Source: Chiloscyllium plagiosum
Lineage: Eukaryota
Direction of reading: 5' to 3'
DNA length: 46,000 nt
Assembly (NCBI RefSeq): GCF_004010195.1
Contig: NC_057718.1
Span: 72,482,165 to 72,528,164 of the forward strand
Shown one piece after another: positions 3,282 to 45,760 of the stretch (within the stretch, counting starts at the first letter, position 1; every line of letters begins with the position of its first letter). Made by a program: the position numbers and the translations under genes. The notes below the pieces were generated by a model. That model had not been told where the DNA came from and ran no database searches. It saw nothing but the letters and a program-made list of their open reading frames with translations.

Positions 3282-3340
3282 CTGAAGGAGGTCAGTGGAC
3301 CTGAAACGTTAACTCTGCTTTCTGTCCATAGATGCAGTTT
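3282..3340 (+). ncRNA. Degenerate hammerhead-like motif in a PLE terminal-repeat fragment (family D)
   Basis: CUGAAGG-AGGUC-agug-GACCU-GAAA-CG-UUA; core imperfect; related to the minus-strand copy at 42528-42560. Confidence 0.45.
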
Positions 3341-3929
3341 ATGTCTGCTTTGCCTACAGCACAGAATTGCACTTCCAGAAGATGTACAGAACACACTTCT
3401 AGGAATTTTCTTTTACCTGGAGGAAGGCATGGCAGTTTCTGGTGCCATCTTATTTTTCATAGTATGTAAAATGGTGTTTCCTTTAATCCCTTTATTGTTT
3501 ACTGACTCCACACCCAATTTTATGTAATATTTGCTTCAACTATTACAGCTACAAGTTCCCAAACGTCATGATTCACTGCAGCAGTGCATTGGAAATCCAG
3601 CCCCACTACTCTTGCAGGCATTAGAAACATGAAAAAGTTTCTCTGTCCAAAATCCCTGATTTTTCTTACTGATCAGCTCAGGACAAAAGAAAACTTACAC
3701 TATGTTTACTACTTAACAACGAGATAGTTTATTTGTAATAAAGTTGTCTTCAATCAATTGTTAATTTATAATTCTGTGACAGATTCTACACCTCTTGAAT
3801 GCCCCCTCCCCACCTCATTTACAGACAAATGCACAATGACAGAAAAGACTTGGATGTTAAGTGTGGAAAAAAAATCAAAGAACTAGTGCAATAGCATCAG
3901 TCTGGACCACGGGTTGATGAGCTATTTTA

Positions 3930-5705
3930 GAATATAGATCACATGAATTATGCCAAATTAAATTAATCCCTCCATTCCTTGCATACTCATGTGCTTAGCT
4001 AAAAGCAGTTAAACACCCCTAATGTGTCTGCCTCCACCAATAGTCCTGGCAGCACATTCCAGACTTCCATCACTGTGTAAAAAGACTTGCCCCTCCCATC
4101 TTTCCACCGCCTCACCTTAAATGCATGTCCCATAGTATTAGACATTTGAACTTAGGGTTGACAGTCAGAATCTTTTTCCCAATCTGTGCATCTCATAATT
4201 TTATAAACTTATACCTAGTCTCCCCACTGCTTCACCGAAAACAATCTTGAGTTTTTCTAGCCTCTCCTTGTATCTCATATTCCCTAATCCAGGCAGAATC
4301 TGATAAACCTCTCTACACCCTCTCTAATGTCTCCACATTCTTCATGTCACATGGTGACCAGAACGGAATGCAGTACTGTTTTAAGTGTGGCCTAACCAAA
4401 GTCTTATAAAGCTGCAACATGACTCTTATACTCAATTCCTAGGCCAATAATGGCAAGCCTTCTTTACTACTTGTGCGGCCACTTTCAGGGAGTTATGGCT
4501 TAGGACTCTAAGATTCCTCTGCACATCAATGCTGTTAAGGGTCCTAGCATTAACTGTTAACTCTCCCTTAATTTTTTTTGATCTCCCTAGTGCAACACCT
4601 CACACTTGCCCAGATTAAATTCCATCTACCATTTCTCCGCTCATTTCTGCAACTGATCTATATCCTTTGACAACACCATCCACAACTCCCCTGACCTTTG
4701 TGTCACCTGCAAACTTACTAACCCATCCATCTATGTTTTCATCCAACTCATTTGTATATATTACAAACAGCAGGACTCCCAGTATGGATCCCTGCGGAAC
4801 TCCAGCCTGAAAAACACCTTTCGATCACCACTCTTATTTGGGAAAACCAATTCTGATCCTAAGTGGCCAAGTTATCATAGATCCCAGGCATCTTAATTTT
4901 TTGGATGAGCCTATCATGAGAGATCTTGTTGAAAGCCAGACTAAAATCCATGTAGACATGTACTGCTCAACGCTAATTGATCATCTTAGTCACCTCCTCA
5001 AAAATTTCTATCAATTTAATAAGACATGATCTGCCCTGCACAAAGCCATACTGACTGCCCCTCATTAGGCTAAGCTTTTCCAAATGCACATAGATCCTAA
5101 CCCCAAGAATCCTCCCCAGTGACTAGTGAAGATACAAAGATCTTGGTCAAGGCCCCAGTAATGTTCTCTCTGGTCTCTCTCAAAACTTAGGGCAAATACC
5201 ATCGGTCCTTGGGGACATATTCACCTTAATGCTCTTCAAGAGACCCAACACTTTCTTCCTTGATCTCAAAATGCCCTAACATATTAATATGCTCCACAGT
5301 AGTCTCACTAACCTCCATATTCTTCTCCGGGGTAAACACATATGCAAAGTCCTCATTTAGGTTCTCATCCACACCCTCTGCCTCCAAGTACAAGTTCCCT
5401 CCTTTTTCCTTCTATGGTCCTACCTAGTTTTGCCTAGTTATCCTCTTGTTTTGATGTATAGATTGCCTTGGAATTCTAACCCTTCTTTCCAAGGTCATTT
5501 CATGCCCTCTTCTTGCTCTCCTAATTCCTTGCTTGAGTACTTTACTGCTTTCTTTATATTTTTCCTGTGCCTGGTCCTATCTTAGCTTCTTAAAACTTAC
5601 ATTTGCTTCTTTTTTGATTATATTCACAACCTTCCTCAGTATCCAAGGGTCCTTTACTTTGTCCTTCCTCCTTAATGGAACATGCTAGTCTTGAACTCTC
5701 ATCAG
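3930..5705 (-). mobile_element. Decayed CR1 LINE (RT region to 3' end)
   Basis: Homologous to other CR1 copies in the window, e.g. tgtgtcacctgcaaactt (KFA.DT on the minus strand) and the 3' UTR. Confidence 0.8.
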
Positions 5706-5825
5706 TGGAAACAGTGCTCACGATAGCTATGAATAAGGATAAATCGAGACCTTGCAGGCAAGTACTAAATGGGGGATGGCAGACAATGTTAGGCAGAAAT
5801 TAGGGAGTGTTAATTGGGAGGAACT
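5706..5825 (+). mobile_element. Inverted CR1 segment abutting the previous element
   Basis: Matches 13744-13885 of the plus-strand CR1 (ggaaacagtg...ctatgaataaggataa...gttaa.tgggag). Confidence 0.65.
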
Positions 5826-6304: not shown

Positions 6305-6509
6305 TATGATTCGGAGATGCCGGTGTTGGACTGGGGTGTACAAAGTTAAAAATCACACAACACCAGGTTATAGTCCAACAGGTTTAATTGGAAGCACACG
6401 AGCTTTCGGAGCGACAATCACCTGATGACGGAGCTTTGCTCCGAAAGCTAGTGTGCTTTCAATTAAACCTGTTGGACTATAACCTGGTGTTGTGTGATTT
6501 TTAACTTTG
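6305..6509 (+). mobile_element. About 200-bp fold-back mini-element carrying a hammerhead ribozyme (family B), probably PLE-derived
   Basis: 72-bp inverted arms 6341-6412 and 6438-6509 (2 mismatches); direct repeat TTGGATTAAGA at 6294-6304 and 6507-6517. Confidence 0.8.
6419..6453 (+). ncRNA. Minimal type-I hammerhead ribozyme, intact core
   Basis: CAC-CUGAUGA-C-GGAGC-uuu-GCUCC-GAAA-GC-UA^GUG; stem I CAC/GUG; palindromic AGCU stem III. Confidence 0.8.
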
Positions 6510-6959
6510 GATTAAGACAGTATTTTCCTTGGGTAATCCATAGGCTATGCAATAGGACTACTTAAATGCCAAACAGCATAAATAGCAAGGGACAGAGAGA
6601 TCAAAACAATTCCAGAATGAACAAATCAAAGTGAAAACCAAATGAACTGTGGATGCTGTAAATCAGAAACAATAACAGAAGTTGCTGGAAAAGCTCAGCA
6701 GGTCTGGCAGCATATTTTATACTGATGAACTGGCTTCCCCCTTGTGGATATAGATACTTGTGGAGCCCTTTCCTGCAGGGAGTTGTTTATTTGCCCAATT
6801 GGATGTGACAGGATTGCAGAGCTCGATATTATATGATTTCAGAAACAGAAGTTGCTGGAAAAGCTTGTGGCGAGATCTGTGAAGAGAAAAACTGGAGAAG
6901 GCTCCACAAGTATCTACATCCACAAGGGGGAACTCAGCACAATAAACAATAAAACAGCA

Positions 6960-8370: not shown

Positions 8371-8539
8371 AAGTCAAATAAAGTCACAATAGATCTATTC
8401 AAAGTCTGTCTTATTGACATAGGCAGATGCATCTGTGATGGATGTTTCCTTTTATTGATTTCTTCACCCCCCTGCCACAGCTATATATTTTAGGATTCAG
8501 CAAACATGGTCAGCAGTGCACCTGGGCCACCTCTACCAC

Positions 8540-9022
8540 TAAATCTTAGCCACCCGACGACTGGAGGAAGAACACCTCATCTTCCACTTGGGACCCTTCA
8601 ACCACATGGAATCAATGTCAATTTCACCAGTTTCCTCATCTTCCCTCCCCCCACCACCTTATCCCAGATCCAACCCTTGAACTCCGCAGCACCCTCTTGA
8701 ACAGTCCTACATGTCCACCTTTCTTCCTACCTATCTGTTCCACCCTCCACTCCAACCTATTGCCATCACCCCTCACCTTCATCTACCTATTGCACTCCTA
8801 GCTACCTTCCCCACAGCTCCTCCCATCTCCCATTTATCTCTCAACCCAACCCCCTTGGGCCACCTGCGCCTCCCCCTCCCCACACCCCCACAATTCCTGA
8901 ATAAGAGCTTATGCTTGAAATCTTGACTCTCCTGCTCCTTGGATGCTGCTTGACCTGCTGTGCTTTTTCAGTGCCATACTTTTGATGCTGATCTCCAGCA
9001 TCTGCAGTCCTCACTTTCTCCT
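8540..9022 (+). mobile_element. PLE 3' fragment (GIY-YIG C-terminus plus terminal repeat with a degenerate hammerhead near 8897-8925)
   Basis: RLEEEHLIF.LGTLQPHGINVNF motif followed by the repeat ending ctccagcatctgcagtcctcactttctcc. Confidence 0.8.
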
Positions 9023-9104
9023 TTCACATTCAGCACTCATGATGAAAATTAACATTTTGTTTCTGAGGACCAGATGTTACTTATAACAGTAATGGATTAA
9101 TTGT

Positions 9105-13021: not shown

Positions 13022-13033
13022 CCTAGCTTAGAG

Positions 13034-13184
13034 AAAGTGAGGACTGCAGATGCTGGAGTACCAGAGTTGAAAAATGTTGTTTCAGGCATAAGCTGAAGGA
13101 GGGCTTATGCCCGAAACGTCGATTCTCCTGCTCCTCGGATGCTGCCCTGGCCTGCTGTGTTTTTCCAGCATGACATTTTTCAAC
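13034..13184 (+). mobile_element. About 150-bp PLE-derived mini-insertion: inverted 5' part plus hammerhead motif (13093-13120)
   Basis: TSD CCTAGCTTAGAG at 13022-13033 and 13185-13196; CUGAAGGA-GGGC-uuau-GCCC-GAAA-CGUC (variant core). Confidence 0.8.
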
Positions 13185-14065
13185 CCTAGCTTAGAGCCTG
13201 GATCTGTACATGGGACATCATGTCTTGGCCATTACTGAGACCTGGTTGTTAGAGGTACTGTATTAGCTGCTCGACGTTTCAGGGTTTTAGTGGTTTAGAC
13301 AAGATAGAGGGGGATATGAAAGAGGTGGAGGAATTGCATTACTAATGAGGGAGAATGTCATACCTGCATTCAGAGAGAACATACTGGAAGGTTCATCCAC
13401 TGTAACAATATGGATAGAGCTCAAAAATAAGCAAAGTTCAATCACTCTGCTTGGATTATACTATAGGCCACCTCATCAGCCACCAAAACATTGAGGATAG
13501 ATATGTGGGCAGATTATGGAAAGATTTCCAAAAAAATGGTTGTTATAGTGCGCAATTTTAACTTCCTCAACATTCACTAGGACTTCCTTACAACAAAAGG
13601 CTGAGGGCAGAATTTGTTAGATACATCCAAGAGGATTTCTTGAAACAGTATGTGGACAGTTCAACTAAAGGAAGGGCCAAACTGGACTTAGTATTGGCAA
13701 ATGAGCCTGACCAGATGACTGACCTTACAGTGGGAAAGCATTTTGGAAACAGTGATCACAACTCCTTAAGTTTTAAAATATCTATGAATAAGGATAAGTC
13801 CGGAACTTGTGGGAAGATACTTAATTGGGGAAGGGCAAATTATTATAGTAGTAGACAGGTGCTAGGGAGAGTTAACTGGGAGCAGTTGCTATTGAATTAG
13901 TCCACATTTGACATGTGGGAGTTATTCAAAGACCTACTGATTAGAGTTCAGGCTGGCATGCTTCAGTAAGGGGGAAGGACAAGGATGGCAAGATATGAGA
14001 CCCTTGGATGATGATAATGTTGTGAATGTAGTCAAAAAGTAAAAGCAAGTGTAAGGTTTAGGTAG

Positions 14066-14407
14066 CTGAAAATGTGTTGCTGGAAAAGCGCAGCAGGTCA
14101 GGCAGCATCCAAGGAGCAGGAGAATCGACGTTTTGGGCAAGAGTCCTTCTTCAGGAAGGATTTCACCAGTTTCCTCATTTCCCCTCCCCCCCAACCATAC
14201 CCCAGTTTCAACCTCCCAGCTCAACACCATCCTCATGACCTGCCCTACCTGCCAATCATCCTCTTCTCCGACCTATCACCTTTACCCCTTCCTCCATCCA
14301 CCTATTGCACTTAGCTACTTTCTTGCTGGCCTCAGCCCCCTCCCATTTATCTCTCCACCCCTGAGGCTCCCTGCCTCATTCCTGATGACGGACATTTGCC
14401 CGAAATG
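14066..14407. mobile_element. PLE fragment: inverted terminal repeat (minus) joined to a plus-strand 3' region
   Basis: Family A terminal repeat 14066-14155 (minus), then 14158-14407 (plus) ending in ctgatgacggacatttgcccgaaatg. Confidence 0.8.
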
Positions 14408-14854
14408 GACAGGGTCCATGAGGAATAGAAAGAAAACAGGAAATAACTCTAGCAGGAAATTAGGAGAGCATGGAAGAAGGGTGGAAGAAAATCCCGTGGC
14501 ATTTTATACAAACATTAAAAGCGAGAGGTTAAATAGGGAGAGGGTAGGACCAGTCAAGGTTAAATGAGAGAACTTATGCTTGGAGGCACAGTATATGGAC
14601 GAGACCCTAAATGAGTACATCAATGTTCACCAAGCACAGATTAGTGTGCATGGGCATTTTGAGGTCAAGAAAGAAGTGGCATTGGATTTCTTGAAGAGTC
14701 TTAAGCTGGATACATCCCCTGTCCCAGATGGGACATAACCCAGGTTATGGAGAGAAGCAAGAGAGGAGATTGTGGGGGCCTCAATCAAGATCTTGGTATC
14801 TTTTCTATTCACTGGAGAGGTCATGGAGGACTGGCACTCTAATCTTGAGCTAAT

Positions 14855-15420
14855 AGCCAAGATTAGAGTGGCACTGGAAAAGCACAGCAGGTCAGTCAGC
14901 ATCCAAGGAGCAGGAAAATTGACATTTCGGGCAAATGTCCGTCATCAGGAATGAGGCAGGTAGCCTCAGGGGTGGAGAGATAAATGGGAGGGGGCTGAGG
15001 CTAGCGAGAAAGTAGCTAAGTGCAATAGGTGGATGGAGGAAGGGGTAAAGGTGATAGGTCGGAGAGGAGGGAAGGACGATTGGCAGGGAGGACAGGTCAT
15101 GAGGATGGTGTTGAGTTGGGAGGTTGGAACTGGGGTAAGATGGGTGGGGAAGGGGGGGGGGAGGGGAAATGAGGAAACTGGTGAAATCCACATTGATGCC
15201 CTGGGGTTGAAGTGTTCTGAGGCAGAAGATGAGATGTTCTTCCTCCGGGCGTCGGGTGGTGAGGTAGTGGCGGTGGAGAGGGCCCAGGACCTCCTCCACC
15301 CCATGTCCTCGGCAGAGTGGGAGGGGGAATTGAAATGTTTGGCCATGGAGAGGTGGGTTTGATTGGTGTGGGTGTACCGGAGATGTTCCCTAAAGCACTC
15401 TGCGATAGGCGTCTTGCAGT
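14855..15420 (-). mobile_element. PLE 3' fragment with GIY-YIG endonuclease C-terminus
   Basis: AECFREHL...AKHFNSPSH...EEEHLIFCLRTLQPQGINVDF in ORFs 14966..15427 and 14892..15299, then the terminal repeat. Confidence 0.85.
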
Positions 15421-15423
15421 TAC

Positions 15424-16389: not shown

Positions 16390-16680
16390 CCGCATCCCAG
16401 GTCCAATTCCCCAACTCGAGACCAATCTCTTGACATGTCCCACCTGTTCATCTTCCTTCTCCTCTATCCGCTCCTAACTATCACTATCACCTCCACCTGC
16501 ACCTACCTATCGCCATCCAAACTACCTTCTCCCATTACCTACCTTCTCCCATTTATCTCTCAGCATCCTCTCATCACCCTGAAATTCTTGATGAAGGGCT
16601 CATGCCGAAACATCAATTCTCCTGCTCCTCAGATGCTGCCTGACCTGCTGAGCTTTTCCAGCGCCACACTTTTCGAATCT
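16390..16680 (+). mobile_element. PLE 3' terminal fragment with a degenerate hammerhead
   Basis: ttgatgaagggctcatgccgaaacatcaattctcctgctcctcagatgctgcc. Confidence 0.7.
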
Positions 16681-17265
16681 AAGGGGTGTGACTGCCTTCT
16701 GAAACACAGCATTAAGGTAAGTCTCCCCCCTGTCTGATGAGTCACTGTATTCTAAGTTCAGATTTCAGCTCATCAAATCTGAGCCGGAGTTTTTCAAGCA
16801 ACCAAGATGTGATTAGCACGAACAGCAGTGGGGTCCACCAACTCCCATATTACGCAGGCATAACACATGGCCTGGCTAGCATCTCTACTTTAACTATTTA
16901 GTTCTTGATTTGACTTTTAAAACTTTCATACTGGTCTTTCAGCTTGTAGCCTCTAAATCTTTCCCCTATTTATCTTTAATCTGAAAGTAACCTAAAATAT
17001 ATGGACAAATTAGTAGCTATCACCGGAAAACAAACTTACAATTTATCGGTGAAGTCACTATTTTATGCTGGCTCCTTGACCCTTGATTTCAATTTAGTCT
17101 GTTGAAAACAAACCTATAAACTCATGAGCCAAAAAAGTCAAGCAAAAAGCACCTCTTTCCCCTCTGCACTGACTGCCTTCAAATTCCCCAAGCTAGGAGT
17201 ATATCTTCTCCTAGCGAGCTTTGAGAAGATATACTCACTCCAGATGAGGTCCCTCCTTCTTGACC

Positions 17266-18101
17266 ATGGATAAAGTAGATGACATTTGTGGAAGCAAGGT
17301 AAATGTCTGTCAGATGTGGAAGGATGCTTTGGGGCCTTGGATGGAGGTGAGGGGAGAAAGGTACTAACATTATTAATGGTCAAAATCTTCTACCTGTTGA
17401 AACACCAGGGTCGCTGTGTCTGGTATAGAAATATTGAATCCCTACAGAGTGGAAAGAGTGAAGCTAGTCTAGCCAGTATTAGTATCTTTTTTGTTTATTC
17501 CTGAATGTGTTTATTCTGTTGTCAATTTTGAATTGAGCTGGAAATGGCTTGTGAATTTTGGGACAGCTTGTAGTAAAAGGCAAAGAACAGATCTTGTTTG
17601 TTAGGTCAGGCCTGGAGGCTAATTGCAGGCTGCTCCTTGATTAAAAAGGTTCTATGGGTTTCACTGTGGCTCAGTGGCAAGCTGCCTCACAATGCCAGGG
17701 ACCCACATTTGATTCCAGCTTTGGATTAAAGTCTGTGTGGAGTTTGCATGTGTCTGTGTGGGTTTCCTCCATGTGTTCAGGTTTCCTCCCACAGTCCAAA
17801 GATTTATAGGTTTGGTGGGTTGACCATGATAAATGTGATGTTATAAGGATAGGGCCTGGGTGGGATGTTATTAGGACGGTTGATGAGGTCATGATGGGCC
17901 AAATAGCCTCTTTCCACTCTGTAGGGATTCAATATTTCTATACCAGACACAGCGACCCTGGTGTTTTCAACAGGTAGAAGATTTTGACCATTAATAATGT
18001 TAGTACCTTTCTCCCCTCACCTCCATCCAAGGCCCCAAAGGATCCTTCCACATCTGACAGAAATTTATCTTGCTTCCACAAATGTCATCTACGTTATCCA
18101 T
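17266..18101. repeat. Inverted duplication, arms about 193 bp (17266-17458 and 17908-18101)
   Basis: Near-identical reverse complements; ORFs 17138..17383(-) and 17984..18349(+) both begin MTINNVSTFLPSPPSKAPK. Confidence 0.9.
17655..17930 (+). mobile_element. tRNA-derived SINE (HE1-like), diverged
   Basis: A-box-like gtggctcagtgg; body tgtgtggagtttgca...gggtttcctcc; tail ctgtagggattc. Confidence 0.75.
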
Positions 18102-18460
18102 TGCATCCGATGTGGTCTCCTCTACATCAGGGAGACAGGACGCCAACTTGCAAATCATTTCAGAGCATATCTTTGGGACACCTGCACCAACCAATCCCAC
18201 CGTCTGTGGCTGAACACTTCAACACTCCCTCCCTCCACCAAGGACATGCAAGTCCTGGGCCTCCTCCTGGGCCAAATCCTAACCACCTGACACTTGGAGG
18301 AGGAACGTCTCATCTTCCGCCTTGGGACCCTGCAACCACATGGAATTAATGTGGATTTCACCAGTTTCCGTCAGTCCCACATTCCCCACCATTTATCTCT
18401 CAGCTCCTGGCCCACAATCCTCATTTCTGATGAAGGGCTTACACCCGAAACATCGATTTT
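18005..18460 (+). mobile_element. PLE (Neptune-like) GIY-YIG fragment plus terminal repeat
   Basis: STNVIYVIHCIRCGLLYIRETGRQLANHF (GIY-YIG motif with CxxC), EEERLIFRLGTLQPHGINVDF, hammerhead-like ctgatgaagggcttacacccgaaacatc at 18427. Confidence 0.85.
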
Positions 18461-20281: not shown

Positions 20282-20791
20282 AAAATGTGTTGCTGGAAAA
20301 GCACAGCAGGTCAGGCAGCATCCAAGGAGCAGGAGAATCGACGTTTCAGGCATGAACCCTTCTTCAGGAATCTGCAGTCTTCACTTTCTCCTCGAATATC
20401 TGCAGTCCTCACTTTCTCCTTGAATCTCCTGCTCCTTGGATGCTGCCTGACCTGCTGCGCTATTCCAGCAACACATTTTCAGCTCTGATCGCCAACATCT
20501 GCAGTCCTCACTTTCTCCTCGAAGATTTTAGCCTACTGCGAATCCTCTTGCAAGGATGCCTTCCTTGAAGAAGCTCTCTTCCTCCCTCTACAAGGATTTC
20601 AGTGAGTCCCTTTCTCACTGCACACCCCAGGTCATCTCCTCTGCCCAGAAGCTCTTCAGCCACATTCCTGAAGAAGGGCTCATGCCCGAAACGTTGAGTC
20701 TCCTGCTCCTCGGATGCTGCCTGACCTGCTGCGCTTTTCCAGCAACACATTTTCAGCTCTGATCTCCAGCATCTGCAGTCCTCACTTTCTC
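20282..20791 (+). mobile_element. About 510-bp PLE-derived insertion: inverted terminal repeat, tandem terminal repeats and two opposed hammerhead motifs
   Basis: 17-bp TSD CTCTAACTATCATTCTG at 20265-20281 and 20792-20808; hammerhead minus about 20340-20367 (CUGAAGA-A-GGGU-ucau-GCCU-GAAA-CGUC), plus 20668-20695 (CUGAAGA-A-GGGC-ucau-GCCC-GAAA-CGUU). Confidence 0.85.
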
Positions 20792-33337: not shown

Positions 33338-33765
33338 CAAAAGTGAGAACTGCAGGTGCTGGAGATTAGAGTAGAGTGCATTGTGCTGGAAAAGCATAGC
33401 AGGTCAGGCTGCATCCAAGGAGCAGGAGAATCAATGCTTTAGGCAAAAGCCCTTCATCAGCAATGAGGCTGTGAGCCGAGAGGGTGGAGGGATAAATGAG
33501 AGGGGGTGTGGGGCTGGGGGCGGGGGGGGGAAGGTAGCTGAGAGTGTGATAGATAAATGGAGGAGAGGGTAATGATGATAGGCCGGAGAGGACGGTGGAG
33601 TGGATAGACAGGAAGGAAGATGGACAGGTGGGACCAGTTATGAGGGCAGTGCTGAGTTGGTAGGTTGGAATTGGGATAAGATGGGGGGAGGGGAAATGAG
33701 GAAACTGATGAAATCCACATTGATCCTGTGTGGTTGGAGAGCCCCAAGGTGGAAGATGAGAGCAT
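33338..33765 (-). mobile_element. PLE 3' fragment plus terminal repeat
   Basis: Reverse complement of the 8540-9022 type; degenerate hammerhead near 33430-33460. Confidence 0.8.
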
Positions 33766-35218: not shown

Positions 35219-35789
35219 CTGAAATAGTGAAAAATATAAAGATCAATAAGAAAAACGCCAAAATGAATGGCATTTACTGGCAAGGTAATTCTAAGATGAT
35301 GATTTACATACATTAATTATGAATAACTACAAATAATCTATCAGATCATTTGTTTTGATGTAAAGCATAAGCCAGACAGTATAAGGACGGCATTTTCCTA
35401 ATGGATATTAGTGAACCAGGTGGTTTTTTACAACAGTTGATGATTTCATGGTCATTTTTATTGAGACTACCTTTAAATTACAAATCTTATTAATGAATTG
35501 AATTTGAATTGCACCAGTGATTTGAATCGGTTTTCCCAAGAATGCAGAGGCTTTGCAAATTTAGAATGTAATTATTTTAAAATGCCACTTTCAAACACTT
35601 CAGTTTAGAAAATGCCCAAATGATAGAGCTTTCAAACCAAAACCATCAGTGAGATTTTAATACATTCCAAAGTATTTCAAAGAATAGTGACAGCTGTGCA
35701 TTGAAAAACAAAGAAACTAATGCTGTGGCAAGCAAGGAGAACTGCTTTGTGGTAACAATCAAACATAATGCTTTTGAGAGTTCAGTTTC

Positions 35790-36360
35790 TGGATGTAAGT
35801 TTGCTCGCTGAGCTGGAGGGTTTGTTTTCAGACATTTTGTCACCATAACTAGGTCACATCATCAGTGAAAACCTCCAGTGAAGCACTGGTGGTATGTCCT
35901 GCCTCTCTATTTATAAGTCTTGGTTTTTTAAGGTGAGTAATGTTATTTCCTTTTTTTTTTTACAAGGGAAGGTAGATGGGGTCTAAATCAATGTGTTTAT
36001 TGACGGATTTCCAGATAAAGAACACCACACACACCCTAGGACAAGCGAAACAAAGACACACACACACACGAGAATTCCTAGAGGCTTGGCATTCTAACCA
36101 GAACGCCATCAAAAAATGCATCGATTTAGACCCCATTTACCTTCCCTTGAGAAATAAAACCGGAAATGACATCACTCACCTTAAGAAACCAAGACCTATA
36201 AATAGAGAGGTGGGACATAATACCAGCGCTTCACCAGAGGCACTCACAGATGATGTTACCTAGTCATGGTGACGAAATGTCTGAAAACAAACCTTTTAGC
36301 TCACCAAGCAAACTTACATCCATATCCTCAACCTGAGCTACAAATCTTCTCAAAAATCGC
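35790..36360. mobile_element. Penelope/Poseidon-type PLE 3' end with an inverted copy (family C)
   Basis: REFLEAWHSNQNAIKKCIDLDPIYLPLR (GIY-YIG C-terminus); about 35790-36010 is an inverted copy of about 36090-36322; both arms carry degenerate hammerheads. Confidence 0.8.
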
Positions 36361-37887: not shown

Positions 37888-38080
37888 TAAATAAAAACCA
37901 AAAGAACTGCGAGTGCTGTAAATCAGAAACAATATAATAAAATTGTTGGGAAAGCTCAGCAGGTCTGGCTGCATCTATGGAGATTGATCCTTCCTCAGAA
38001 CTTCAGAAACATTAACTCAGATTTCTCTCCCCAGATGTTCCCAGACTTGCTCAGCTTTTCCAGCATTTTCTGTTTTTATC
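37888..38080. mobile_element. Fold-back PLE terminal-repeat fragment (family D); related pieces at 6627-6713, 6838-6890 and 42462-42563
   Basis: aaagctcagcaggtctggc pairs with ccagacttgctcagctttt. Confidence 0.65.
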
Positions 38081-38248: not shown

Positions 38249-38420
38249 CTGAAAATGTGTTGCTGGAACAGCGCAGCAGGTCAGGCAGCATCCAGGGAAC
38301 AGGAGAATCGACGTTTCGGGCATAAGCCTGTTCCCTGGATGCTGCCTGACCTGCTGCGCTGTTCCAGCAACACATTTTCAGCTCTGATCTCCAGCATCTG
38401 CAGACCTCACTTTCTCCTCC
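38249..38420. mobile_element. 172-bp fold-back PLE mini-insertion (family A)
   Basis: Perfect 55-bp inverted repeat 38249-38303 / 38327-38381; TSD AGTTAA(T/C)ACTGAAA at 38235-38248 and 38421-38434. Confidence 0.88.
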
Positions 38421-38758
38421 AGTTAACACTGAAAGCCTGTCACTGCAGAGAGTTGTCAACCAGAAGGTTGATGCCATCAGGTGCCTCATATGTAATTATT
38501 ATCTGTCACTTAATTGCAGCGACCAATGTAGCACTCCTGGCACCATCATGCTACTACCTCTCACAGAGCTGCCATAGTTCAAACAAATCACCATCAGTGG
38601 GGACATGACCTAATATGGTATTGCTATGCAGGGTTTCATGATATTCATTAATTAATTTATGTTTTACCAAGTTGACAATGTTATCTAAACATCTCAGAGA
38701 TAACCACTCTATCTTCGGTGCATGATGCTTTAATACACATTTGAATAGCGTTACTAAC

Positions 38759-38911: not shown

Positions 38912-39759
38912 CTGTGGGAGGTGAAAATCACTACCTGGTTAGGGAAATGTCTCAAATACATTATAAGTCTTTACACTAACTTTTACACACTTACTTAAAT
39001 CGCATTCCTTTGTGCATTCAAGGCAAAGGGAGTGAATGCAGAAGGTGGTTGGCAGGGACCCAAACAATCAGAATGCTTTGTCTTGGATGGTGTCAAGCTT
39101 CTTGAGTGTTATTGGAGTTGAACCCAACCAGGGGAGGGCAATACATGGAAGAAACCCATGCAGACATGGGGAGAATGGTGACTGTCTGTGTGGTGTTTGC
39201 ACAACAGCTGGAATCAAAGTTGGGTCCATGGCACTGTGAGGCCAACCACCGATCCAGTGTGCCACCCAGGATTGTTTATTCAGAAGGGAACCATTGGAGT
39301 GACCATTTGGGAGTCTTTGATGGTTTAATTTTACTGTGTTGCAACTGACTGGGCTCAGCTATCTGACTCGGTGTCATAAAAATCTGAGCAAAAGGTAGTG
39401 GAAATCCACAGGGACATTGACAGGTTGGTGGATTGGATAGTTGGAGCAGCACTGAAGCAGCAGTGCTAACCACTGTGCTGCCCAAAACATATAGCATTTG
39501 GCTGAACTAATCTGTACCACTGTTTATGCATCACAAGTCGCCTTCCATTCCTCTTTAATGTAACTTTCCCCAAAAAGCAACAATGCTATTTGCCTCAATC
39601 ATTCCCTGAGGTGGGGAGTTCTAAATTGCTCTTGCTTTACTCTGGGTAAAGATGATTCTGCTGAATTCCCTAGTGGATTTATCAGTGATCACTGCAAGGT
39701 TTGTTGCTCAGATAGAGGTTTAGGGTGTAGTTTTGCTCTCTGAGCTGTAGGTTTGATAT

Positions 39760-39799
39760 CCAGACGTTTCATTACCTGGCTAGGTAACATCATCAGTGG
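39760..39799 (-). ncRNA. Minimal type-I hammerhead ribozyme, intact core (family C PLE repeat, about 39695-39900)
   Basis: CCA-CUGAUGA-U-GUUACCU-agcc-AGGUAAU-GAAA-CG-UC^UGG; stem I CCA/UGG; GUC triplet. Confidence 0.82.
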
Positions 39800-41457
39800 T
39801 GACCTCCAAGTGAAGCGAAGCTGTTGTCTCCTGGTTTGTCCTGGATGAGGACACAAACCCCAGGCACCCCACCCAGGACAAACATATAAATAGAAAGCAC
39901 TTTAGTCTGTTTTATTTTAGAGAAAAGAATCACATCTTTCAATCTTTCCAGCACTGTCTTCAGTGCCCATATATTCTTTTAGTAGTATTGAGACTAAGCG
40001 AGAGATTTGAAAATCATGACCGTGATAATTGGAGGCACAGTTTGGCACCAAGCCACACACTGGTTTTCTGCTACAACTCCTAATACTGAATAATTTCGAA
40101 GATGGTTGACTTGGGGTCAGATAGACTGCTACTGGCAAGTGGCAGGCAGCCAATTGAAAGCAATTAATTAAGTGCTTATTAAAGTCCTAGCTGCACAATA
40201 ACTAGGATTTCCAATCAGCAATGTGGGCTGCTCACGTGGTCTTGAACGCATTGGGGTCAATTTTACAGGGATTAACAGAGCCCAGCCCTTTTTGCACAAA
40301 AAGGAAGCTTCACATATCGGAGAGCAGATTCTGCCCAGGTGTCATTCAGAAATAGATAGAAATGCATTTTTTGTAGCTTGAAATTGTTAGGGGAAGGCAA
40401 GCCACATCCCCTTTTCAAGGTAATCAGTTTCTGCATTTTGAAATTTAGAGGACCTGACTGCAATATTGAAAACATCTGTTGTCAAAGCATAGAAGGTAAA
40501 CGTGATGTTAAGGTGCTGGGAGGGTGGGCTACCAGATTGGCAGGAGGTTAGGGTGTCATGTAAGTAGGGTTCCAGTTACGATGTATGTACAGTATCAGGT
40601 TGTATAAAGTTCCATGGGAAGCAAGAAAGCCTTTAATGTAGCCTGGGTGAGCAGGAGAAATTAGGTCTGGTGTGGGGTTGGGTTTAGTACAGTCTGGTGA
40701 GAGATCAACTGACAAGACAGAGTTTAGGGGTCTACTCAGTGGTGGGTTGGGTCAGAAGTTGTGGTCTCAGGTCCTGTGGTTGAGGTGTCAGGTCAGGGAT
40801 AGTGTAGGTGGGATATATGAGATAAGTATGGGTCAGTTTAACTGTTACTCACGAGTTAGAATATGCAATTAATAGTTGAACATTTCCTGAGTAACTATTT
40901 TACGTAATTTCATCAGAACCATTGAAGTCTCCGATTTTGAAACTTTTGCAGGGTTTCAGGCATAAAGAATTTGTCTGGAGGAACATTCAATTTTTCAGCA
41001 ATTGCTTTGGAGTCTGCTAACATGAGGATTCCACAGGGCCCTCATCTGCAACTCCTATTATGTTGGAATAGTGACTGTCCAGAATCAGAGAATCTGTTGC
41101 TCTGATAGATCAATTGAGAGAATCGACTTACACCCTGACCCATGCTAGCCACTGCAGCAGTCTGTTGGAGGACTTTTCTGACCAGGAACATGGCTATGCA
41201 GCTGTGATATTGGAAAAAGTAAAATTACCTTAATTGCCAGTCTCCTCTCTATTTACATCGTCATGTTAGCTCCCAATCTCAAAGTGTTTAGATGGTTCCC
41301 ATTGGCCCTTCATAATTGGGAACCTGCATATCATTCAGCAGCAAGTCCACTACAGCCTTTAGGGCCCTAGAGTAATTAATAATATTTGATTTTTAAGGGT
41401 TTAATTTAAAGGACAGTGAAATTTAAAGGGCTGTGGTGCACTCTCCCTGCTCTACTC

Positions 41458-42665
41458 TTAGAATCATACAGCATGGCCCAATTCATCCATGACCACGTTT
41501 CCTAAACTGAAATAGTCCCATTTGCCTGCATTTTGCTGATATCCCTCTAATCCTTTCCGAACTATATACCTGTCCAAATGTTTTTTAAATATTGTATTTG
41601 TAACTGCCTCTACCACTTCCTCTGGTCACTCATTTCATTTATGCACTACCCTCTCTGTGAAAATGTTGCCCTTCAGGTCCCTTTTAAATCTTTCCCCTCT
41701 CATCTTAAACCTATGCCCTCTATATTTGGACACCCCTTCCCTGGGAAAACACCTTGGCTAGTCCCTACCTTATCTATGCCCGCCATGATTTTATAAACCT
41801 CTATAAGGTCCCCCCTCAGCCTCCTATGCTCCAGGGAAAAAGTCTCAGGCTATTCAGCTTCTCCTTGTATCTTAAACATTCCAGTCTTGATAACATCCTT
41901 GTAAATCTTTTTTGCACCCTTTCCAATTTAATAACATCCTTCCTATAAGGTGGTGATCAGAACTGTACACAGTATTCCAAATGTGGTCTTATCAATGTCT
42001 TGTAAAGCTGTAACTTGATGTCCCAACTCCTGTACTCAGTGCTCTGACCGATGAAGGCAAGCATGCCAAATGACATCTTCACTACCCTGTCTACCTGTGA
42101 CACCACTTTCAAGGAACTATGTACCCACACCACTCTGTTTGACAACATTCCCCAGGACCCTACCATTAACTGTAATGTCTGTCTTACTAAAATGCAACAC
42201 CGTGTGTTTAGCTCAATTAAACTCAGTTTTTCCATTCCTTGACTCATTGACTCTGTTGATCACGATCCTGTTGTACTCTTACATAACCTTCTTTAATGTC
42301 CACTGTCCATCAATTTTGGTGTCAATTGCAAACTTACTAACTATGCCACCTATATTCTCGATATAAACGATGAACAAGCCTGGCAGGTATTGGGCCTCCA
42401 GTCTAAACAACAACCTTTACCATCACCTTCTGTCTCCTAACGTCAAGCCAATTGTATGTCCAAAACAAAAACAGAAATTGCTGGGAAATCTCAGCAGGTC
42501 TGGCAGCATCTGTGGAGGCAAATCAGAGTTAACATTTTGGGTCCAGTGACCCTTCTTCGGAACTTTGTATCTAATTGGTGAGCCCTCCTGGATCCTATGT
42601 AATCTAACTTTAATAATTTGTCTACCTCGTCAAAGGCCTTGCTAAATTCTATGTCTATCGCTCTG
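41458..42665 (-). mobile_element. CR1 3' fragment with a PLE repeat inserted at about 42462-42563
   Basis: LIRPHLEYCVQF and EFSKAFDEV; 3' tail region at 41458. Confidence 0.85.
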
Positions 42666-42699
42666 ACTGGGCATAGTTTTAGTGCTGAGAACCAGAACT

Positions 42700-43550
42700 T
42701 GTGCAGGATATGGCTCAAGATGCAGCTCCTGAAAACTTAGATTTCAGAGCTGGAATAGCAGCTGAGGGTGCTTTGAAGTGTATGGCTGAGAGTACTATGC
42801 ATAGCATGTACAGTAGGATAGCTACTCCACAGGCTAAGACTCCACAGGCAGGGCAGGAATGGATGATCACCAGGAATAAAAAGGTGATTAGGCAGGCAGT
42901 TCAGGCATCCCTGTGGCCATTCCTCTACAAAAGTGATAAGCTGCTCTGGATACTGTTCCAGGCAATCTCGTCTCAGAGGAATATAGCAACAACCAAATCT
43001 GTTGAATTATAATTGGCTCTCTGCACAAGAGAGGAGGACTAAATGTAGGAAGACTGTTGTAGTCGGAGAATCAGTAGTAAGGGGAATAGACAGATGTTTC
43101 GCTGGCTGCATATGAGACTCCCCAGGATGGTATGTTGCCTCCTGGGTGCCAGAGTCAAGAAAATCTCAAAGCAGCTACAGGACATTCTGAAGTGGGAAGG
43201 TGAAGAGCCAGTGATCATGTTATACATCAGAACCATTGACATAAGAATGAAAAGGTAAGAGGTCCTAAAAGCAAACTAAAGGGAGTTAGGAAACAAATAA
43301 AAAATAGGATCACAAATCTGACAACTGCTGCCAATCATATAGTAGTTAGAGGAGAAATAGCAGGATTATTTTGCTGGGGAAATGGTACAAGGGAGAGGGT
43401 TTTAAATCCCAGATGCATTGAGACCAGGTCTGAGGGAAGTGAGACTGGTACAAGCTGGATTGCACCTGAGTGGGACCAGAACTGATTTTGTAGGGGGTGT
43501 ATTTGCCAGTGTGGTCAGGAAGGGTTTAAACTAAAATTAAAGAGGGATGG
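42700..43550 (+). mobile_element. Decayed CR1 ORF1 (esterase) fragment
   Basis: tgttgcctcctgggtgccagagtc (CC.PGARV-like) and ggtttaaacta, homologous to ORF 40..825. Confidence 0.7.
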
Positions 43551-45409
43551 GAACATAGACAAGTTCATTTTATGTGAAGTTTGAAAATAGTAATGGGCGC
43601 ATTTAAAGCCAACTATGTGAGGATTAGACACAGAAATAGCCCCAAATTCTGGTTTATGACTGATTAAAATTCCAGTCCAAGAATTCTGCACAGTATTCCA
43701 TGTATGATCTAAACCAATGTTAACATAAATTCTGGCATCTGAAGAACCTTAATTGACACCAACTATTAATTTTCTTTTTCTCTTCAGTTGCAACCAGACC
43801 TGCACAGCTTTTGTCAACACTCTGTTTCTATTTATTTTAACTTCTCCAATTTTCAATTCTATCCATCCAAAAATGAAGAAAAATAATCTTGCAGGATTAT
43901 AGTGATAGGGTGGGGAAAGAATTAACTGGTTTGTTCCACAGAAACCTTGAATGAACTTGATGGGTCAAATGGTCTCCATTTATGCTACAAAGAGTTTATG
44001 AATCTATGGTCTCACACTTGTCAATATTGTAGTTAACGAACAGGGTTTTCCAAAATACTGCTATCCACAAATTCTGAAATTGGATTTCCAATTCTTGTAC
44101 CCAAATCTTTGTAAATCATGAATTACAGTTACCCCAGTACAATCCTTGTTCAAGCTTAATTTCAACTTTGTCCTTTGTTTTTTATCAATAGCCAGTTTGT
44201 TTTGTTTGTTTATCGAATATATTTCTCCAAACTCTACTTATCACCGTTCCAAATGTTTTCCACTTGTTTTCTGTCTCATTGTTTTCATTGTCGCACAATA
44301 TTATTTTCCAGGTAAATTTTCCCAAATTCTATTTTCATCCCCATAAGATCATTTCCCTTTCCAATCTATTAATCTTGGATTTTCAAAAATTTTTAAAGAT
44401 CTTATTATGCTGATTAGATACTTCATAAACCTTATTTCTCTCAGCTTCACTAACAATACAGGGTTCAGCAGTGGTACTTCCCCAATTGGACTTTTCATAC
44501 ATTGATTATTAAAGGTGTCCTGAACAGACTGTAAAATCTGTATTCCTTTTTCCTCTTTCCCTTAACTGATTCTTGCTGATATACTTTGAGTAGTTGAAAT
44601 ATTTCTTGATTATTATTTTAGTTCCTTCACTTATTTCATACTTAATGCATGTGTAAATATTTCTAATTCCACATCCTTTTCACTATCAGGTGAATCTCTT
44701 TAGAGTGCCAATCAAATCTTAAAATAATTTATTTAATTTACTGCCATTATATCATCTCTAATTAGTGCAACAACTCAACAGCCTTTCTTTATACACTGCC
44801 ATTTTCTTGCAAGGAACAAGAAAAATTTGACGTTTGAAGTATTTTTGTTAAAAAACAATGTATCAACTCAGAAAAATCAGGAAATTTATTATTCAAAATT
44901 GATTATGAAACAATTTTAAATGGTCACTTTAGAACATAGAACATAGAAAAGTACAGCACAGAGCAGGCCCTTTGGCCCACAATGTTGTACGGAGAATGAA
45001 TCCTAATGTAAAATAACTTGACCCATGCACCCCTTTTCTTACCATAAGTAATCGCTGTCAGTTTACAGCAGTAACATTTATCATTTGATCGTTGTATACA
45101 GGTACATGATTGATAAAAGTGTCTATCAACTTTGGGAAAGATAAATCCCGTTGAAGTCTTTTCTGTTAACACTGCTGGTGAGTCAGCTTCAGCAAAGCAA
45201 GTGTTTGATCCAAAACCTCAGGCAAAATGCTTGCAGCAAAATTGGAGAAAATGAGGCAGTGTAACTGTAAATAGACAGAGCCAGTAAGAAAAGCACAGCC
45301 AAAGAGAAAAATAGAATGGAGACAACTCCTTCCCCTCACCTTAAAAATGTGCCCTCTAGTCTTGAAATTACTCATCTTAGGGAAAAGACAACTATCAACT
45401 CTATCTATG

Positions 45410-45760
45410 CCTGTGGTTCGTTTTGGCAGTGGAGGAGGCCAAGGATGGTCATATCAGAAAGGGAGTGGGAAGGGGAATTAAAATGGCCAGGATGGGGGGG
45501 GGGGAAGGAAAGAGACTGAGAGGTCCTGTCGGCCTCTGTGGACCTGGCTGCAATGCTCGATGAACCATTCCCTAAGGTTATGTAGAGAAGACCACATCGG
45601 GAGCACCTGATGCAGTAAACCAGGTTAGAAGAGAAAGTGAGGACTGCAGATGCTGGAGATCAGAGCTTAAAAATGTGTTGCTGGAAAAGCGCAGCAGGTC
45701 AGGCAGCATCCAAGGAGAAGGAGAATCGACGTTTCAGGCATAAGCCCTTCTTCAGGAGGG
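45410..45760 (-). mobile_element. PLE GIY-YIG fragment plus terminal repeat with an intact hammerhead core at 45728-45755
   Basis: Minus strand CUGAAGA-A-GGGC-uuau-GCCU-GAAA-CGUC; 45410-45630 resembles the GIY-YIG region at 18100-18250. Confidence 0.75.

What the first reader, a model, noticed from the sequence alone, without database searches (positions are those of the whole stretch)
3282..45755. About four families of minimal hammerhead ribozymes, many on tiny TSD-flanked non-coding insertions (retrozyme-like / non-autonomous PLE system)
Seen: more than 15 intact or decayed CUGANGA-stem II-GAAA-NN-UH motifs in 46 kb. Stem II differs by family yet stays paired: A GGGC/GCCC with variable tetraloops (uuau, ucau, cugu); B GGAGC/GCUCC; C GUUACCU/AGGUAAU; D GGGUC/GACCC versus AGGUC/GACCU, a compensatory change. 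Stem III is reduced to a palindrome (ACGU or AGCU). Five units of 127-510 bp with no RT or endonuclease sequence have their own 9-17 bp TSDs (6305, 13034, 20282, 23612, 38249). Established: Penelope-like elements carry minimal type-I hammerheads in their pseudo-LTRs that are thought to cleave as dimers, and retrozymes are non-autonomous hammerhead retroelements. Inference: this genome hosts several very high-copy, recently mobile ribozyme-bearing mini-elements mobilised by Neptune- or Poseidon-type PLEs. Whether these specific families are already catalogued cannot be told from the sequence.
Basis: partly seen in the sequence, partly recalled or inferred. Interest (0 to 1): 0.8.

Follow-up and report, generated by a model that had tools for sequence, protein, structure and literature searches.

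The report
Hammerhead-bearing stubs of Penelope retroelements
The small hammerhead-ribozyme motifs in this window are real, but they are the already described minimal hammerheads of Penelope-like jumping genes, and the tiny flanked insertions that carry them are most likely dead-end short copies of the front end of those elements' RNA, not a self-spreading ribozyme family.

Summary
The window has 5 intact and about 14 decayed minimal hammerhead motifs in four sequence families, against 0.03 intact expected by chance. The five small units have target-site duplications of 9-17 bp. Genome-wide the four patterns give 30,150 intact matches.

All four families lie just downstream of the GIY-YIG endonuclease end of Penelope-like elements (PLEs). 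Relatives of the upstream reverse transcriptase carry RT plus a C-terminal GIY-YIG domain.

The mini-units are not discrete replicating families. Every junction examined differs. Stubs carry no substitutions of their own. No tandem array holds a hammerhead.

Their sharp ends fit PLE biology. They start 0-15 nt upstream of the hammerhead, about 31 nt below a TATA-like box and often with an extra G. They stop at one of two sites about 34 nt apart, the known PLE "tail". Exactly one arm of a fold-back carries the tail.

The "compensatory" pair in family D is two independent transitions. This scan has already reported the same thing many times elsewhere in this genome.

The parts
3279..3335 (+). 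Family D stub fragment; hammerhead 3282-3306 with a core mutation (CTGAAGG), stem II AGGTC/GACCT
6305..6506 (.). Family B fold-back unit. The inverted arm (6306-6412) is 5'-truncated inside stem II and carries the tail. The direct arm (6419-6506) has the intact hammerhead at 6422-6446 and is preceded by G+ACAATCAC. TSD TTGGATTAAGA.
   Evidence: (I23)
8521..9022 (+). Older 5'-truncated family A-like PLE copy: EN C-terminus, 3'UTR, decayed hammerhead (8897-8920) and tail
13034..13184 (.). Family A fold-back unit: inverted tail fragment plus a direct stub whose hammerhead (13093-13116) has CTGAAGG. TSD CCTAGCTTAGAG.
14064..15394 (.). Composite: inverted family A stub (14064-14160, GAAA mutated to AAAA) next to an older PLE copy with inverted repeats (14260-14407 / 14923-15070), hammerheads at 14382+ and 14925-, and an EN C-terminal fragment read on the minus strand (14949-15440)
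   Evidence: (I2)
16584..16682 (+). Family A-like stub with a decayed hammerhead (CTTGATGA, 1-nt deletion before GAAA)
   Evidence: (D8)
17965..18450 (+). 5'-truncated PLE copy: GIY-YIG EN C-terminal part (..NVIYVIHCIRCGLLYIRETGRQLANHFR.. GINVDFTSF, with a frameshift), then hammerhead 18427-18450 (stem II weakened)
20282..20791 (.). Family A composite unit of 510 bp. It holds an inverted stub (20282-20371, hammerhead 20344-20367 minus strand), two 28-nt tail-end repeats (20370-20425), a partial tail (20422-20486), tail plus the first 147 nt of the PLE ORF (20479-20667), and a second 5'-end copy with the intact hammerhead 20668-20691 and tail. TSD of 17 bp.
23612..23738 (+). Family A simple stub of 127 bp, from the hammerhead (23612-23635, intact) to the tail end. 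TSD ACACACAAA.
33384..33760 (-). Older 5'-truncated PLE copy: EN C-terminus, 3'UTR and a decayed hammerhead
35780..36348 (.). Family C fold-back (arms 35780-36011 / 36101-36332) with decayed hammerheads at 35826-35865 (minus) and 36247-36277 (plus)
   Evidence: (I1)
38249..38421 (.). Family A fold-back unit. Both arms are 5'-truncated within or after the hammerhead, so no complete ribozyme remains. The direct arm carries the tail. TSD of 14 bp with 1 mismatch.
39641..39830 (-). Family C copy with the intact hammerhead 39767-39796 (stem II of 7 bp)
42441..42570 (-). Family D stub; hammerhead 42535-42553 decayed (CCGAAGA, CAAAA). Related D-type tails lie at 6667-6713(-), 37940-37982(-) and 38012-38077(+).
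45625..45757 (-). Family A simple stub with tail; hammerhead 45732-45755 intact with a G.U in stem II; no clear TSD

Best explanation
The motifs are the minimal hammerheads that sit in the terminal repeats of at least four lineages of endonuclease-bearing Penelope-like retroelements, and the tiny TSD-flanked units are most likely dead-end insertion products of those elements themselves.

Shown:
- Each hammerhead family lies a few hundred bases downstream of a GIY-YIG endonuclease reading frame.
- The short copies end at one of two fixed sites, about +95 and about +130 nt from the hammerhead start.
- In families A, B and D most short copies begin 0-15 nt upstream of the hammerhead.
- They occur as single stubs, as head-to-head fold-backs with the tail on exactly one arm, or as head-to-tail joins whose junction differs in every copy.

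Inferred:
- The fixed 5' boundary is the capped 5' end of the element's transcript.
- The two 3' boundaries are the internal start sites of the PLE reverse transcriptase.
- A stub is therefore a cDNA of only the first 95-130 nt of the RNA, made by target-primed reverse transcription.
- A fold-back is two such cDNAs primed from both sides of the cut.
- Head-to-tail joins come from template jumps after the enzyme reaches the cap.
- The hammerhead is carried along because it lies between cap and start site. The templates were uncleaved RNA, and the stubs lack promoter and coding capacity.
For: PLE identity. EN C-terminal frames sit directly upstream of hammerheads in the window (17965-18400+, 14949-15440-, 33472-33800-) and in genome copies. 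Family C has an EN motif in sense 310-400 nt upstream in 6 of 20 loci. Family B has it in L114, plus an EN C-terminus about 640 nt upstream in L107 and L126. Family D has it in 1 of 20. An RVT_1-like frame lies upstream of EN (L020, 28.4 bits against a cut-off of 29.6). Its relatives (best 82% identical) carry RVT_1 followed by a C-terminal GIY-YIG.

Ends, family A. I took the first 40 places of an exact 36-mer on one contig, giving 42 hammerhead-anchored segments. Of these, 21 are fold-backs and 8 are simple stubs starting 0-15 nt from the hammerhead, 1 is a head-to-tail join, 1 is masked and 11 are extended. The 3' ends fall in two groups: 25 of 42 at +71..110 and 17 of 42 at +125..133.

Ends, other families. 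Family B: 6 stubs, 8 fold-backs and 16 extended of 30, with 3' ends at 82-97 or 121-123. Family D: 20 of 20 start 4-15 nt upstream. In C and D the 3' ends also fall in two groups.

The 'unit' is element sequence. The 147 nt after the tail is the start of the PLE ORF, and 34 of 36 copies have the pLTR directly upstream.

Independent events. 11 different junctions occur in 12 loci, and the window's junction occurs 9 times genome-wide.

Cap and promoter. TATAAA (B, 10 of 13) or TTTATC (A, 9 of 10) lies 31-32 nt upstream of the usual stub start. At the modal family A start (ATTC, 20 copies) the preceding base is G in 11, A in 8 and T in 1, where the template has C.

Tail. It is on exactly one arm in 13 of 13 family A and 6 of 7 family B fold-back loci, and in 4 of 4 fold-back units of the window, read by eye.

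Literature read. Craig et al. 2021 (PMC8557442, passages) describe the tail, the inverted 5'-truncated copy and the pLTR. Frangieh et al. 2024 (PMC11167929, main text) report two internal RT start sites that bound the tail, cleavage and extension of both DNA strands, and uncleaved RNA as the template.
Against: - No RNA 5'-end data support the proposed transcription start. The only raw RNA run was a poly(A) single-cell library and showed no pile-up of read starts or ends.
- The TATA, initiator and cap-G readings rest on recalled consensus rules. A precedes the start in 8 of 20 copies.
- Family C does not show a discrete start near the hammerhead (5' extents 11-537), so the model as stated fits A, B and D only.
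- Full-length copies could not be read, because the stretches upstream of several long copies are withheld as N. Promoter position and ORF integrity of the parents are therefore unverified.
[quoted passage not shown] That does not predict the strict one-tail rule seen here.
- Samples are small (40, 30, 20 and 20 loci) and come from one end of one contig.
- The family D 5' result uses a coverage criterion that cannot see rare extended copies.
Confidence: 0.72

Rival explanations
1. The mini-units are discrete non-autonomous elements (non-LTR retrozyme or SINE-like). They would be transcribed, perhaps self-cleaved and circularised, and copied in trans by PLE enzymes.
For: - Both ends are sharp and copy numbers are huge.
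- Direct dimers with two hammerheads about 272 nt apart exist (5 or more of 12 loci).
- A 2026 preprint reports non-LTR retrozymes in the one chondrichthyan it sampled and derives them from PLE pLTRs (10.64898/2026.07.22.740005; abstract, Results part 1, one Methods section and the Discussion read).
Against: - Junctions differ from copy to copy (11 sequences in 12 loci; 9 genome-wide matches to the window's junction).
- The interior is the element's own ORF start, of variable length from 147 to more than 690 nt.
- Stubs and long copies have the same majority base in all 92 columns compared.
- Stubs start at the presumed +1 and so lack the upstream TATA-like box.
- No hammerhead-bearing tandem array is in the window.
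- Inverted pairs (21 of 42) far outnumber direct pairs (2-3 of 40 loci).
Confidence: 0.12
2. The short copies are ordinary, randomly 5'-truncated PLE insertions. The apparent fixed start is where reverse transcriptase stalls at the structured hammerhead, not an RNA end.
For: - PLE insertions are known for heavy 5' truncation (PMC8557442).
- Family C and 11 of 42 family A copies do show variable 5' extents.
- The boundary adjoins a stable hairpin (stem II forms in the predicted fold).
Against: - An enzyme moving 3' to 5' meets stem II before the CUGANGA strand, so a stall should fall inside or 3' of the hammerhead, not 0-10 nt beyond its 5' edge.
- The boundary lies 31-32 nt below a TATA(-like) box in two unrelated families.
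- The junction often has an untemplated G.
- Downstream pieces of head-to-tail joins begin at the same place.
Confidence: 0.1
3. The hammerheads are under selection at these loci for a host function, for example processing of host pre-mRNAs, rather than being passive cargo.
For: RNA reads cover the repeat on both strands and run on into varied flanks, so copies are embedded in host transcripts.
Against: - Among 57 copies chosen without regard to the hammerhead, non-CpG divergence of the core (0.018-0.021) is about that of the tail (0.026). CpG sites inside the ribozyme decay at 0.07-0.15.
- About 14 of about 19 copies in the window are already broken.
Confidence: 0.03

Closest known systems
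Minimal hammerheads (min-HHR) of metazoan Penelope-like elements (Cervera & de la Pena 2014, PMC4209133; passages read)
   Same: - Core of CUGANGA and GAAA.
- One unpaired nt at the 5' end of helix II.
- Helix II of 4-7 bp and a short helix I.
- No helix III of its own, only a palindrome that could pair in a dimer.
- Location in the PLE terminal repeat.
- Several sequence families per genome.
- Most motifs occur as solo copies or as pairs on opposite strands 100-700 bp apart.
   Different: - The host is a shark-type genome, which the passages I read do not list.
- The count is higher than the quoted examples: at least 30,150 intact matches to four patterns here, against about 4,000 in coelacanth and about 9,000 in Xenopus.
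- Cleavage was not tested here.
Insertion unit of endonuclease-bearing PLEs: pLTR, adjacent inverted 5'-truncated copy and a 30-40 bp tail at one end (Craig et al. 2021, PMC8557442, passages), with the internal RT start sites of the anole Poseidon element (Frangieh et al. 2024, PMC11167929, main text)
   Same: - TSD-flanked units, with head-to-head and partial-tandem layouts.
- A 34-35 nt tail present on one side only.
- Two 3' end points about 34 nt apart, some 65-100 nt beyond the hammerhead cleavage site.
- The insertions span the cleavage site, so uncleaved RNA was the template.
   Different: - Most copies here are extreme: 95-130 nt stubs with a fixed 5' start next to the hammerhead (30 of 42 in family A, 14 of 30 in B), rather than randomly truncated copies.
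- The one-tail rule is near absolute in vivo (13 of 13 and 6 of 7 loci). In vitro, no strand difference in start site was reported.
Animal non-LTR retrozymes (Cervera & de la Pena 2020, PMC7229834, abstract only; Li, Clavereau & Pollet 2026 preprint 10.64898/2026.07.22.740005, sections read)
   Same: Non-coding, PLE-related sequences that carry type-I hammerheads. Occasional direct dimers could in principle release a unit-length RNA.
   Different: - No tandem array has two or more consecutive complete hammerhead units in the window.
- Junctions are unique to each locus.
- The interior is the PLE's own ORF start.
- No circular RNA evidence was obtained.

Membership tests
min-HHR of PLEs | Conserved core CUGANGA ... 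GAAA with a paired helix II | tested here: met
   5 sites pass a strict descriptor against 0.03 expected. Genome counts are 6,858, 18,089, 3,538 and 1,665, with reversed-pattern controls of 0, 0, 0 and 1.
min-HHR of PLEs | Bulged nucleotide at the 5' end of helix II; helix III reduced to a short palindrome | tested here: met
   All 5 intact sites need the 1-nt bulge (column 'extra'=1). GAAA is followed by ACGT (A, C) or AGCT (B).
min-HHR of PLEs | Lies in the terminal repeat of a PLE, downstream of RT-EN | tested here: met
min-HHR of PLEs | Self-cleavage, expected only as a dimer | not testable with these tools
   Predicted minimum-energy dimers do not form the 4-bp helix III. RNA reads gave no end pile-ups. 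Neither is a test.
Canonical EN+ Penelope-like element | Single ORF with RT followed by a C-terminal GIY-YIG endonuclease | tested here: met
   EN motifs lie upstream of the hammerheads. An RVT_1-like frame lies upstream of EN. Relatives carry RVT_1 at 329-483 or 444-623 and GIY-YIG at 721-760 or 858-893. A full-length copy in this genome was not read, because those stretches are withheld as N.
Canonical EN+ Penelope-like element | pLTR or partial tandem, inverted 5'-truncated copy, and a 30-40 bp tail at one end | tested here: met
Neptune clade of PLEs | [quoted passage not shown] | tested here: inconclusive
   Present (C-HHRN-C-KT-C) in the one copy where the linker was read (L068). No RT phylogeny was made. 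Families B, C and D were not examined for it.
Non-LTR retrozyme | Tandem array with at least two consecutive units, each holding a complete hammerhead (operational rule of the 2026 preprint) | tested here: not met
   TRF finds only a 28-nt x2 repeat without a hammerhead in the window. Direct dimers exist elsewhere in the genome, but with locus-specific junctions.
Non-LTR retrozyme | Unit-length circular RNA made by self-cleavage and ligation | not testable with these tools
   Only a poly(A) single-cell RNA run was available as raw reads.
Rfam hammerhead families | Match to a curated covariance model | tested here: not met
   No hammerhead match at the gathering score or at E<=10. This is expected for motifs without helix III.

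The most novel reading that the evidence does not exclude
The tens of thousands of stubs would be a natural, nucleotide-resolution record of PLE replication intermediates. They would mark the capped transcription start 4-9 nt upstream of the hammerhead and two internal reverse-transcription start sites. They would also show that most integration events in this genome copy only the first 95-130 nt of the RNA. The near-absolute rule that a fold-back carries the 34-nt tail on exactly one arm implies that the two cDNAs made at one chromosomal break are coupled and asymmetric. One possible cause is a dimeric enzyme holding two RNA 5' regions, which the palindromic hammerhead helix III could pair. 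Under this reading the minimal hammerhead would act as an RNA dimerisation element in integration, not only as a cutter.
Probability: 0.2. Interest if true: 0.55.

Novelty: new member of a known kind. Interest (0 to 1): 0.25.

Why it matters
The kind is already known: minimal hammerheads in PLE terminal repeats, several families per genome, opposite-strand pairs, tails and fold-backs are all in print.

The genome adds scale. At least 30,150 intact motifs match four patterns, and a large sample of very short insertions has sharply defined ends. If the inferred cap position and the two start sites are right, these stubs give an in vivo counterpart to the in vitro mapping of internal RT initiation in the anole element. 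The strict one-tail asymmetry is a constraint that any model of PLE integration has to meet.

For annotation, it matters that these units are filed as PLE fragments and not as a new retrozyme or SINE family.

Tried and rejected
- Rfam at the gathering score and at E<=10: no hammerhead. The weak miRNA-model matches at 15427-15551 and 38267-38362 are long hairpins, and the second is the fold-back unit itself.
- Pfam GIY-YIG searched in the own genome: 1 weak match among 150 scored candidates, useless for finding PLEs.
- Pfam on 54 window ORFs: only a LINE-type RT and a GDSL-like domain. The EN fragments are too broken or divergent for Pfam.
The EN-like C-terminus in that locus belongs to a B-type element, recognised only later.
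- Treating the 147-nt 'linker' as private to a non-autonomous unit: local alignments to ten decayed EN-bearing copies gave nothing. The reading was dropped when 36 copies showed it to be the start of the PLE ORF.
- The query was an out-of-frame ORF over the EN region, noticed. Its hits are still homologous DNA, but its identity values do not describe the EN protein.
- MAFFT alignment of the four families mis-registers stem II, so I did not run the count of structure pairs. Between-family pairing was read by hand.
- Minimum-energy folds of monomer and dimer form stem II but not the dimeric helix III, so they are not informative.
- RNA: no RNA holder listed. One raw poly(A) single-cell run, laid at 90% likeness, covered the repeat on both strands, with about 1.4-2.2 times more reads on the strand that I would take for sense if this is a 3'-end single-cell library (the chemistry is not on record). 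96% of reads ran on into unlike flanks and there were no start or end pile-ups. A second raw run laid nothing. This says nothing about cleavage.
- Start of a partial tail at the predicted cleavage site (20422): no enrichment of such starts among the 5' ends listed, so I dropped it.

Full report

Yes. The loose pattern CTGANGA-N8-30-GAAA occurs 16 times against 4.95 +/- 2.24 expected, and none of 100 shuffles reaches 16.

A stricter descriptor of my own asks for CTGANGA, 0-1 bulged nt, a paired stem II of at least 4 bp, a 3-8 nt loop and GAAA. It finds 5 intact sites: 6422+, 20668+, 23612+, 39767-39796- and 45732-45755-. Thirty simulated sequences gave a mean of 0.03. With one mismatch it finds 10 sites against 1.5. 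Homology adds decayed copies, for about 19 in all.

Rfam sees none of them, at the gathering score or at E<=10. That is expected for hammerheads without a helix III.

**2. What carries the motifs?**

The window holds three reading-frame remnants of a GIY-YIG endonuclease directly upstream of hammerheads. One example is ..NVIYVIHCIRCGLLYIRETGRQLANHFR...GINVDFTSF, followed by the hammerhead at 18427.

- Genome copies show the same order, EN, then 3'UTR, then hammerhead, then tail.
- One copy (L068) shows a C-x4-C-x2-C linker before the GIY-YIG motif. Craig et al. 2021 name this feature for the Neptune and Nematis clades (PMC8557442, passages).
- A weak RVT_1 frame lies upstream of EN. Its database relatives, best 82% identical and named by their sources as elasmobranch proteins, carry RVT_1 followed by a C-terminal GIY-YIG.
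- Family C has the EN motif in sense 310-400 nt upstream in 6 of 20 loci. Family B has an EN C-terminus about 640 nt upstream. Family D shows it in 1 of 20.

So all four families belong to endonuclease-bearing Penelope-like elements. The only long RT frame in the window itself (21878-22558, minus strand) looks LINE-like to me, by motifs recalled and not tested, and is unrelated.

**3. Abundance.**

| Pattern | Intact matches |
|---|---|
| A (one exact 36-mer) | 6,858 |
| B | 18,089 |
| C | 3,538 |
| D | 1,665 |

Reversed-pattern controls gave 0, 0, 0 and 1. Cervera and de la Pena 2014 quote about 4,000 for coelacanth and about 9,000 for Xenopus (PMC4209133, passages).

**4. Are the mini-units a discrete non-autonomous family?**

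At first it looked so. Twelve genome copies resembled the 272-nt interior of the unit at 20282, in partial tandem. Thirty-six copies picked through the 'linker' alone changed that reading.

- The 147 nt after the tail are the start of the PLE ORF (ATG at about position 35, MPSLKKLSSSLYKDF...).
- 34 of 36 copies have the pLTR directly upstream.
- The ORF part runs on for anything from 147 to more than 690 nt before it is joined to another hammerhead piece.
- The 12 look-alikes have 11 different junction sequences, and the downstream piece always starts at (G/C)ATTC|CTGAAGA.
- The window's own junction occurs only 9 times in the genome at up to 2 mismatches.
- Stubs and long copies have the same majority base in all 92 columns compared.
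- TRF finds no hammerhead-bearing tandem array in the window.

The rule that the 2026 preprint uses for an active non-LTR retrozyme is therefore not met here.

**5. The ends are nevertheless not random.**

For family A I took the first 40 places of the exact 36-mer along one contig, which gave 42 anchored segments.

| Class | Segments of 42 |
|---|---|
| Fold-back with centre 0-10 nt upstream of the hammerhead | 21 |
| Simple stub starting 0-15 nt upstream | 8 |
| Head-to-tail join at the same point | 1 |
| Masked | 1 |
| Extended into 3'UTR or EN | 11 |

Of the 11 extended segments, 5 run into withheld N and 4 are joined to other parts of the element.

- The 3' ends fall in two groups, +71..110 (25 segments, most at 92-99) and +125..133 (17 segments).
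- Family B: 6 stubs, 8 fold-backs, 16 extended; ends at 82-97 or 121-123.
- Family D: 20 of 20 start 4-15 nt upstream, by a criterion that is blind to rare long copies. Family C: 5' extents spread from 11 to 537.
- The 3' ends fall in two groups in both C and D.

The 34-35 nt difference is the PLE 'tail'. In the anole element it is the stretch between two internal reverse-transcription start sites (Frangieh et al. 2024, PMC11167929, main text).

**6. What is the fixed 5' boundary?**

It is not the ribozyme cleavage site, which lies 28 nt further on.

- In extended copies a TATA-type box lies 31-32 nt upstream of the usual stub start: TATAAA in 10 of 13 family B copies and TTTATC in 9 of 10 family A copies.
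- The family A start, TC-A-TTC, fits the initiator consensus as I recall it.
- Among the 20 family A copies that start at ATTC, the preceding base is G in 11, A in 8 and T in 1, where the template has C.
- By eye, 6 of 14 family B stubs or fold-backs also have such a G.
- An untemplated G at the 5' junction is known to me, from memory, as the mark of reverse transcription running onto the cap in LINE insertions.

I therefore infer that the boundary is the capped transcript start. On that reading a stub is a complete cDNA of the first 95-130 nt of the element's RNA.

**7. Fold-backs and joins.**

The anole enzyme cuts and extends both DNA strands. Two cDNAs that each run to the RNA 5' end and are then joined would give the head-to-head layout.

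Here exactly one arm carries the tail in 13 of 13 family A loci and 6 of 7 family B loci, and in the four fold-back units of the window by eye. If each arm chose independently, with a tail in about 40% of arms, about half of the pairs would look like this. The two arms are therefore coupled.

[quoted passage not shown] The in vitro work saw no strand difference. I have no tested explanation for the coupling.

**8. Role of the hammerhead.**

The insertions span the cleavage site, so the templates were uncleaved, as reported in vitro.

Among 57 copies chosen through neighbouring sequence, non-CpG divergence is 0.018-0.021 in the core, 0.026 in the tail and 0.057 in loop II. CpG sites inside the motif decay at 0.07-0.15. 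This is neutral decay of dead copies.

Between families, stem II is fully different yet paired. Position 10.4-11.4 is C-G, G-C, A-U and U-A in A, B, C and D. This speaks for long-term constraint in the master elements and agrees with the literature.

In the 100 rows listed, counted by hand, the first and last stem letters are G..C 27, G..T 56, A..C 6 and A..T 11. T follows G in 67% and A in 65% of rows, so these are two independent transitions.

**9. RNA.**

No RNA holder was listed. One raw poly(A) single-cell run covers the repeat on both strands, almost always as part of longer unlike transcripts, with no pile-up of ends. This tests neither cleavage nor the start site.

**10. Verdict.**

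The kind is known: min-HHRs of PLEs and the PLE insertion unit with inverted copy and tail. The retrozyme-like reading is not supported.

What is worth keeping is the scale and the sharply defined stub ends, with the one-tail asymmetry.

Earlier notes of this scan reached the same general verdict on other DNA of this genome. I re-derived it from my own calls. Those notes gave me one lead, the EN upstream, and a reading of the stubs as copies of the RNA's front end that parallels mine.

Limits:
- samples are small and come from one contig end;
- full-length copies are withheld;
- supplements of the papers were not opened;
- the promoter, initiator and cap-G rules are recalled, not tested.

Noticed in passing
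window 40-927 (-): A 295-aa open frame with a GDSL-like lipase/acylhydrolase domain (Lipase_GDSL_2, E 3.1e-11). It may be the esterase-type ORF1 of a CR1/L2-like LINE or a host exon.
   Followed up: no
window 21878-22558 (-): A 226-aa RT fragment (RVT_1, E 6e-21) with motifs that I recall as CR1/L2-like (..NYRPVSLKSVV.., YLDFQKAFDKVPH). It is not a PLE. The CTGATGA...GAAA match at 21899-21930 lies inside it and is a chance hit.
   Followed up: partly
window 15427-15551: A near-perfect 125-nt hairpin, AT-rich, giving sub-threshold matches to several plant and animal miRNA precursor models on both strands (best 61 bits against a cut-off of 230). It looks like a small palindromic (MITE-like) repeat.
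   Followed up: no
window 32615-32688 (+): A weak match to the CPEB3 (HDV-like) ribozyme model: 22.6 bits against a gathering score of 35, E 0.12. Probably chance.
   Followed up: no
L033 (G000:C11:80511025-80511725): A 57-58-nt piece of the PLE ORF start (positions 83-141 of my unit) is amplified into a tandem array of ten or more copies next to a normal copy: a minisatellite born from the element's 5' region.
   Followed up: no
window 20370-20425: Two 28-nt head-to-tail repeats of the very end of the tail, inside the 510-bp unit (TRF 92% match). They look like repeated re-initiation or slippage at the second start site.
   Followed up: no
fold-back loci of families A and B (L061-L100, L102-L131); window 6305, 13034, 20282, 38249: Exactly one arm of a fold-back carries the 34-35-nt tail (13 of 13 and 6 of 7 loci). 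This is far from what independent choice would give, and it is not predicted by the published in vitro data.
   Followed up: partly
L063, L064, L066, L069, L080, L087, L097, L102, L109, L119: Runs of N begin about 200-310 nt upstream of hammerheads in long copies. These are withheld stretches, so no full-length element of this genome could be read.
   Followed up: no
L128 (G000:C1:4661038-4664065): A family B stub is joined directly to an inverted family A stub (..cttcattc|CTGATGAAGGAG). It is a chimeric insertion of two PLE lineages, or a nested hit.
   Followed up: no
window 17750-17825 and 26062-26137: A repeat with the string GGGTTTCCTCC..GGTTTCCTCCCACAGTCCAAAGA, which I recall as common in fish and shark SINE-like repeats. 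It is unrelated to the hammerhead elements.
   Followed up: no
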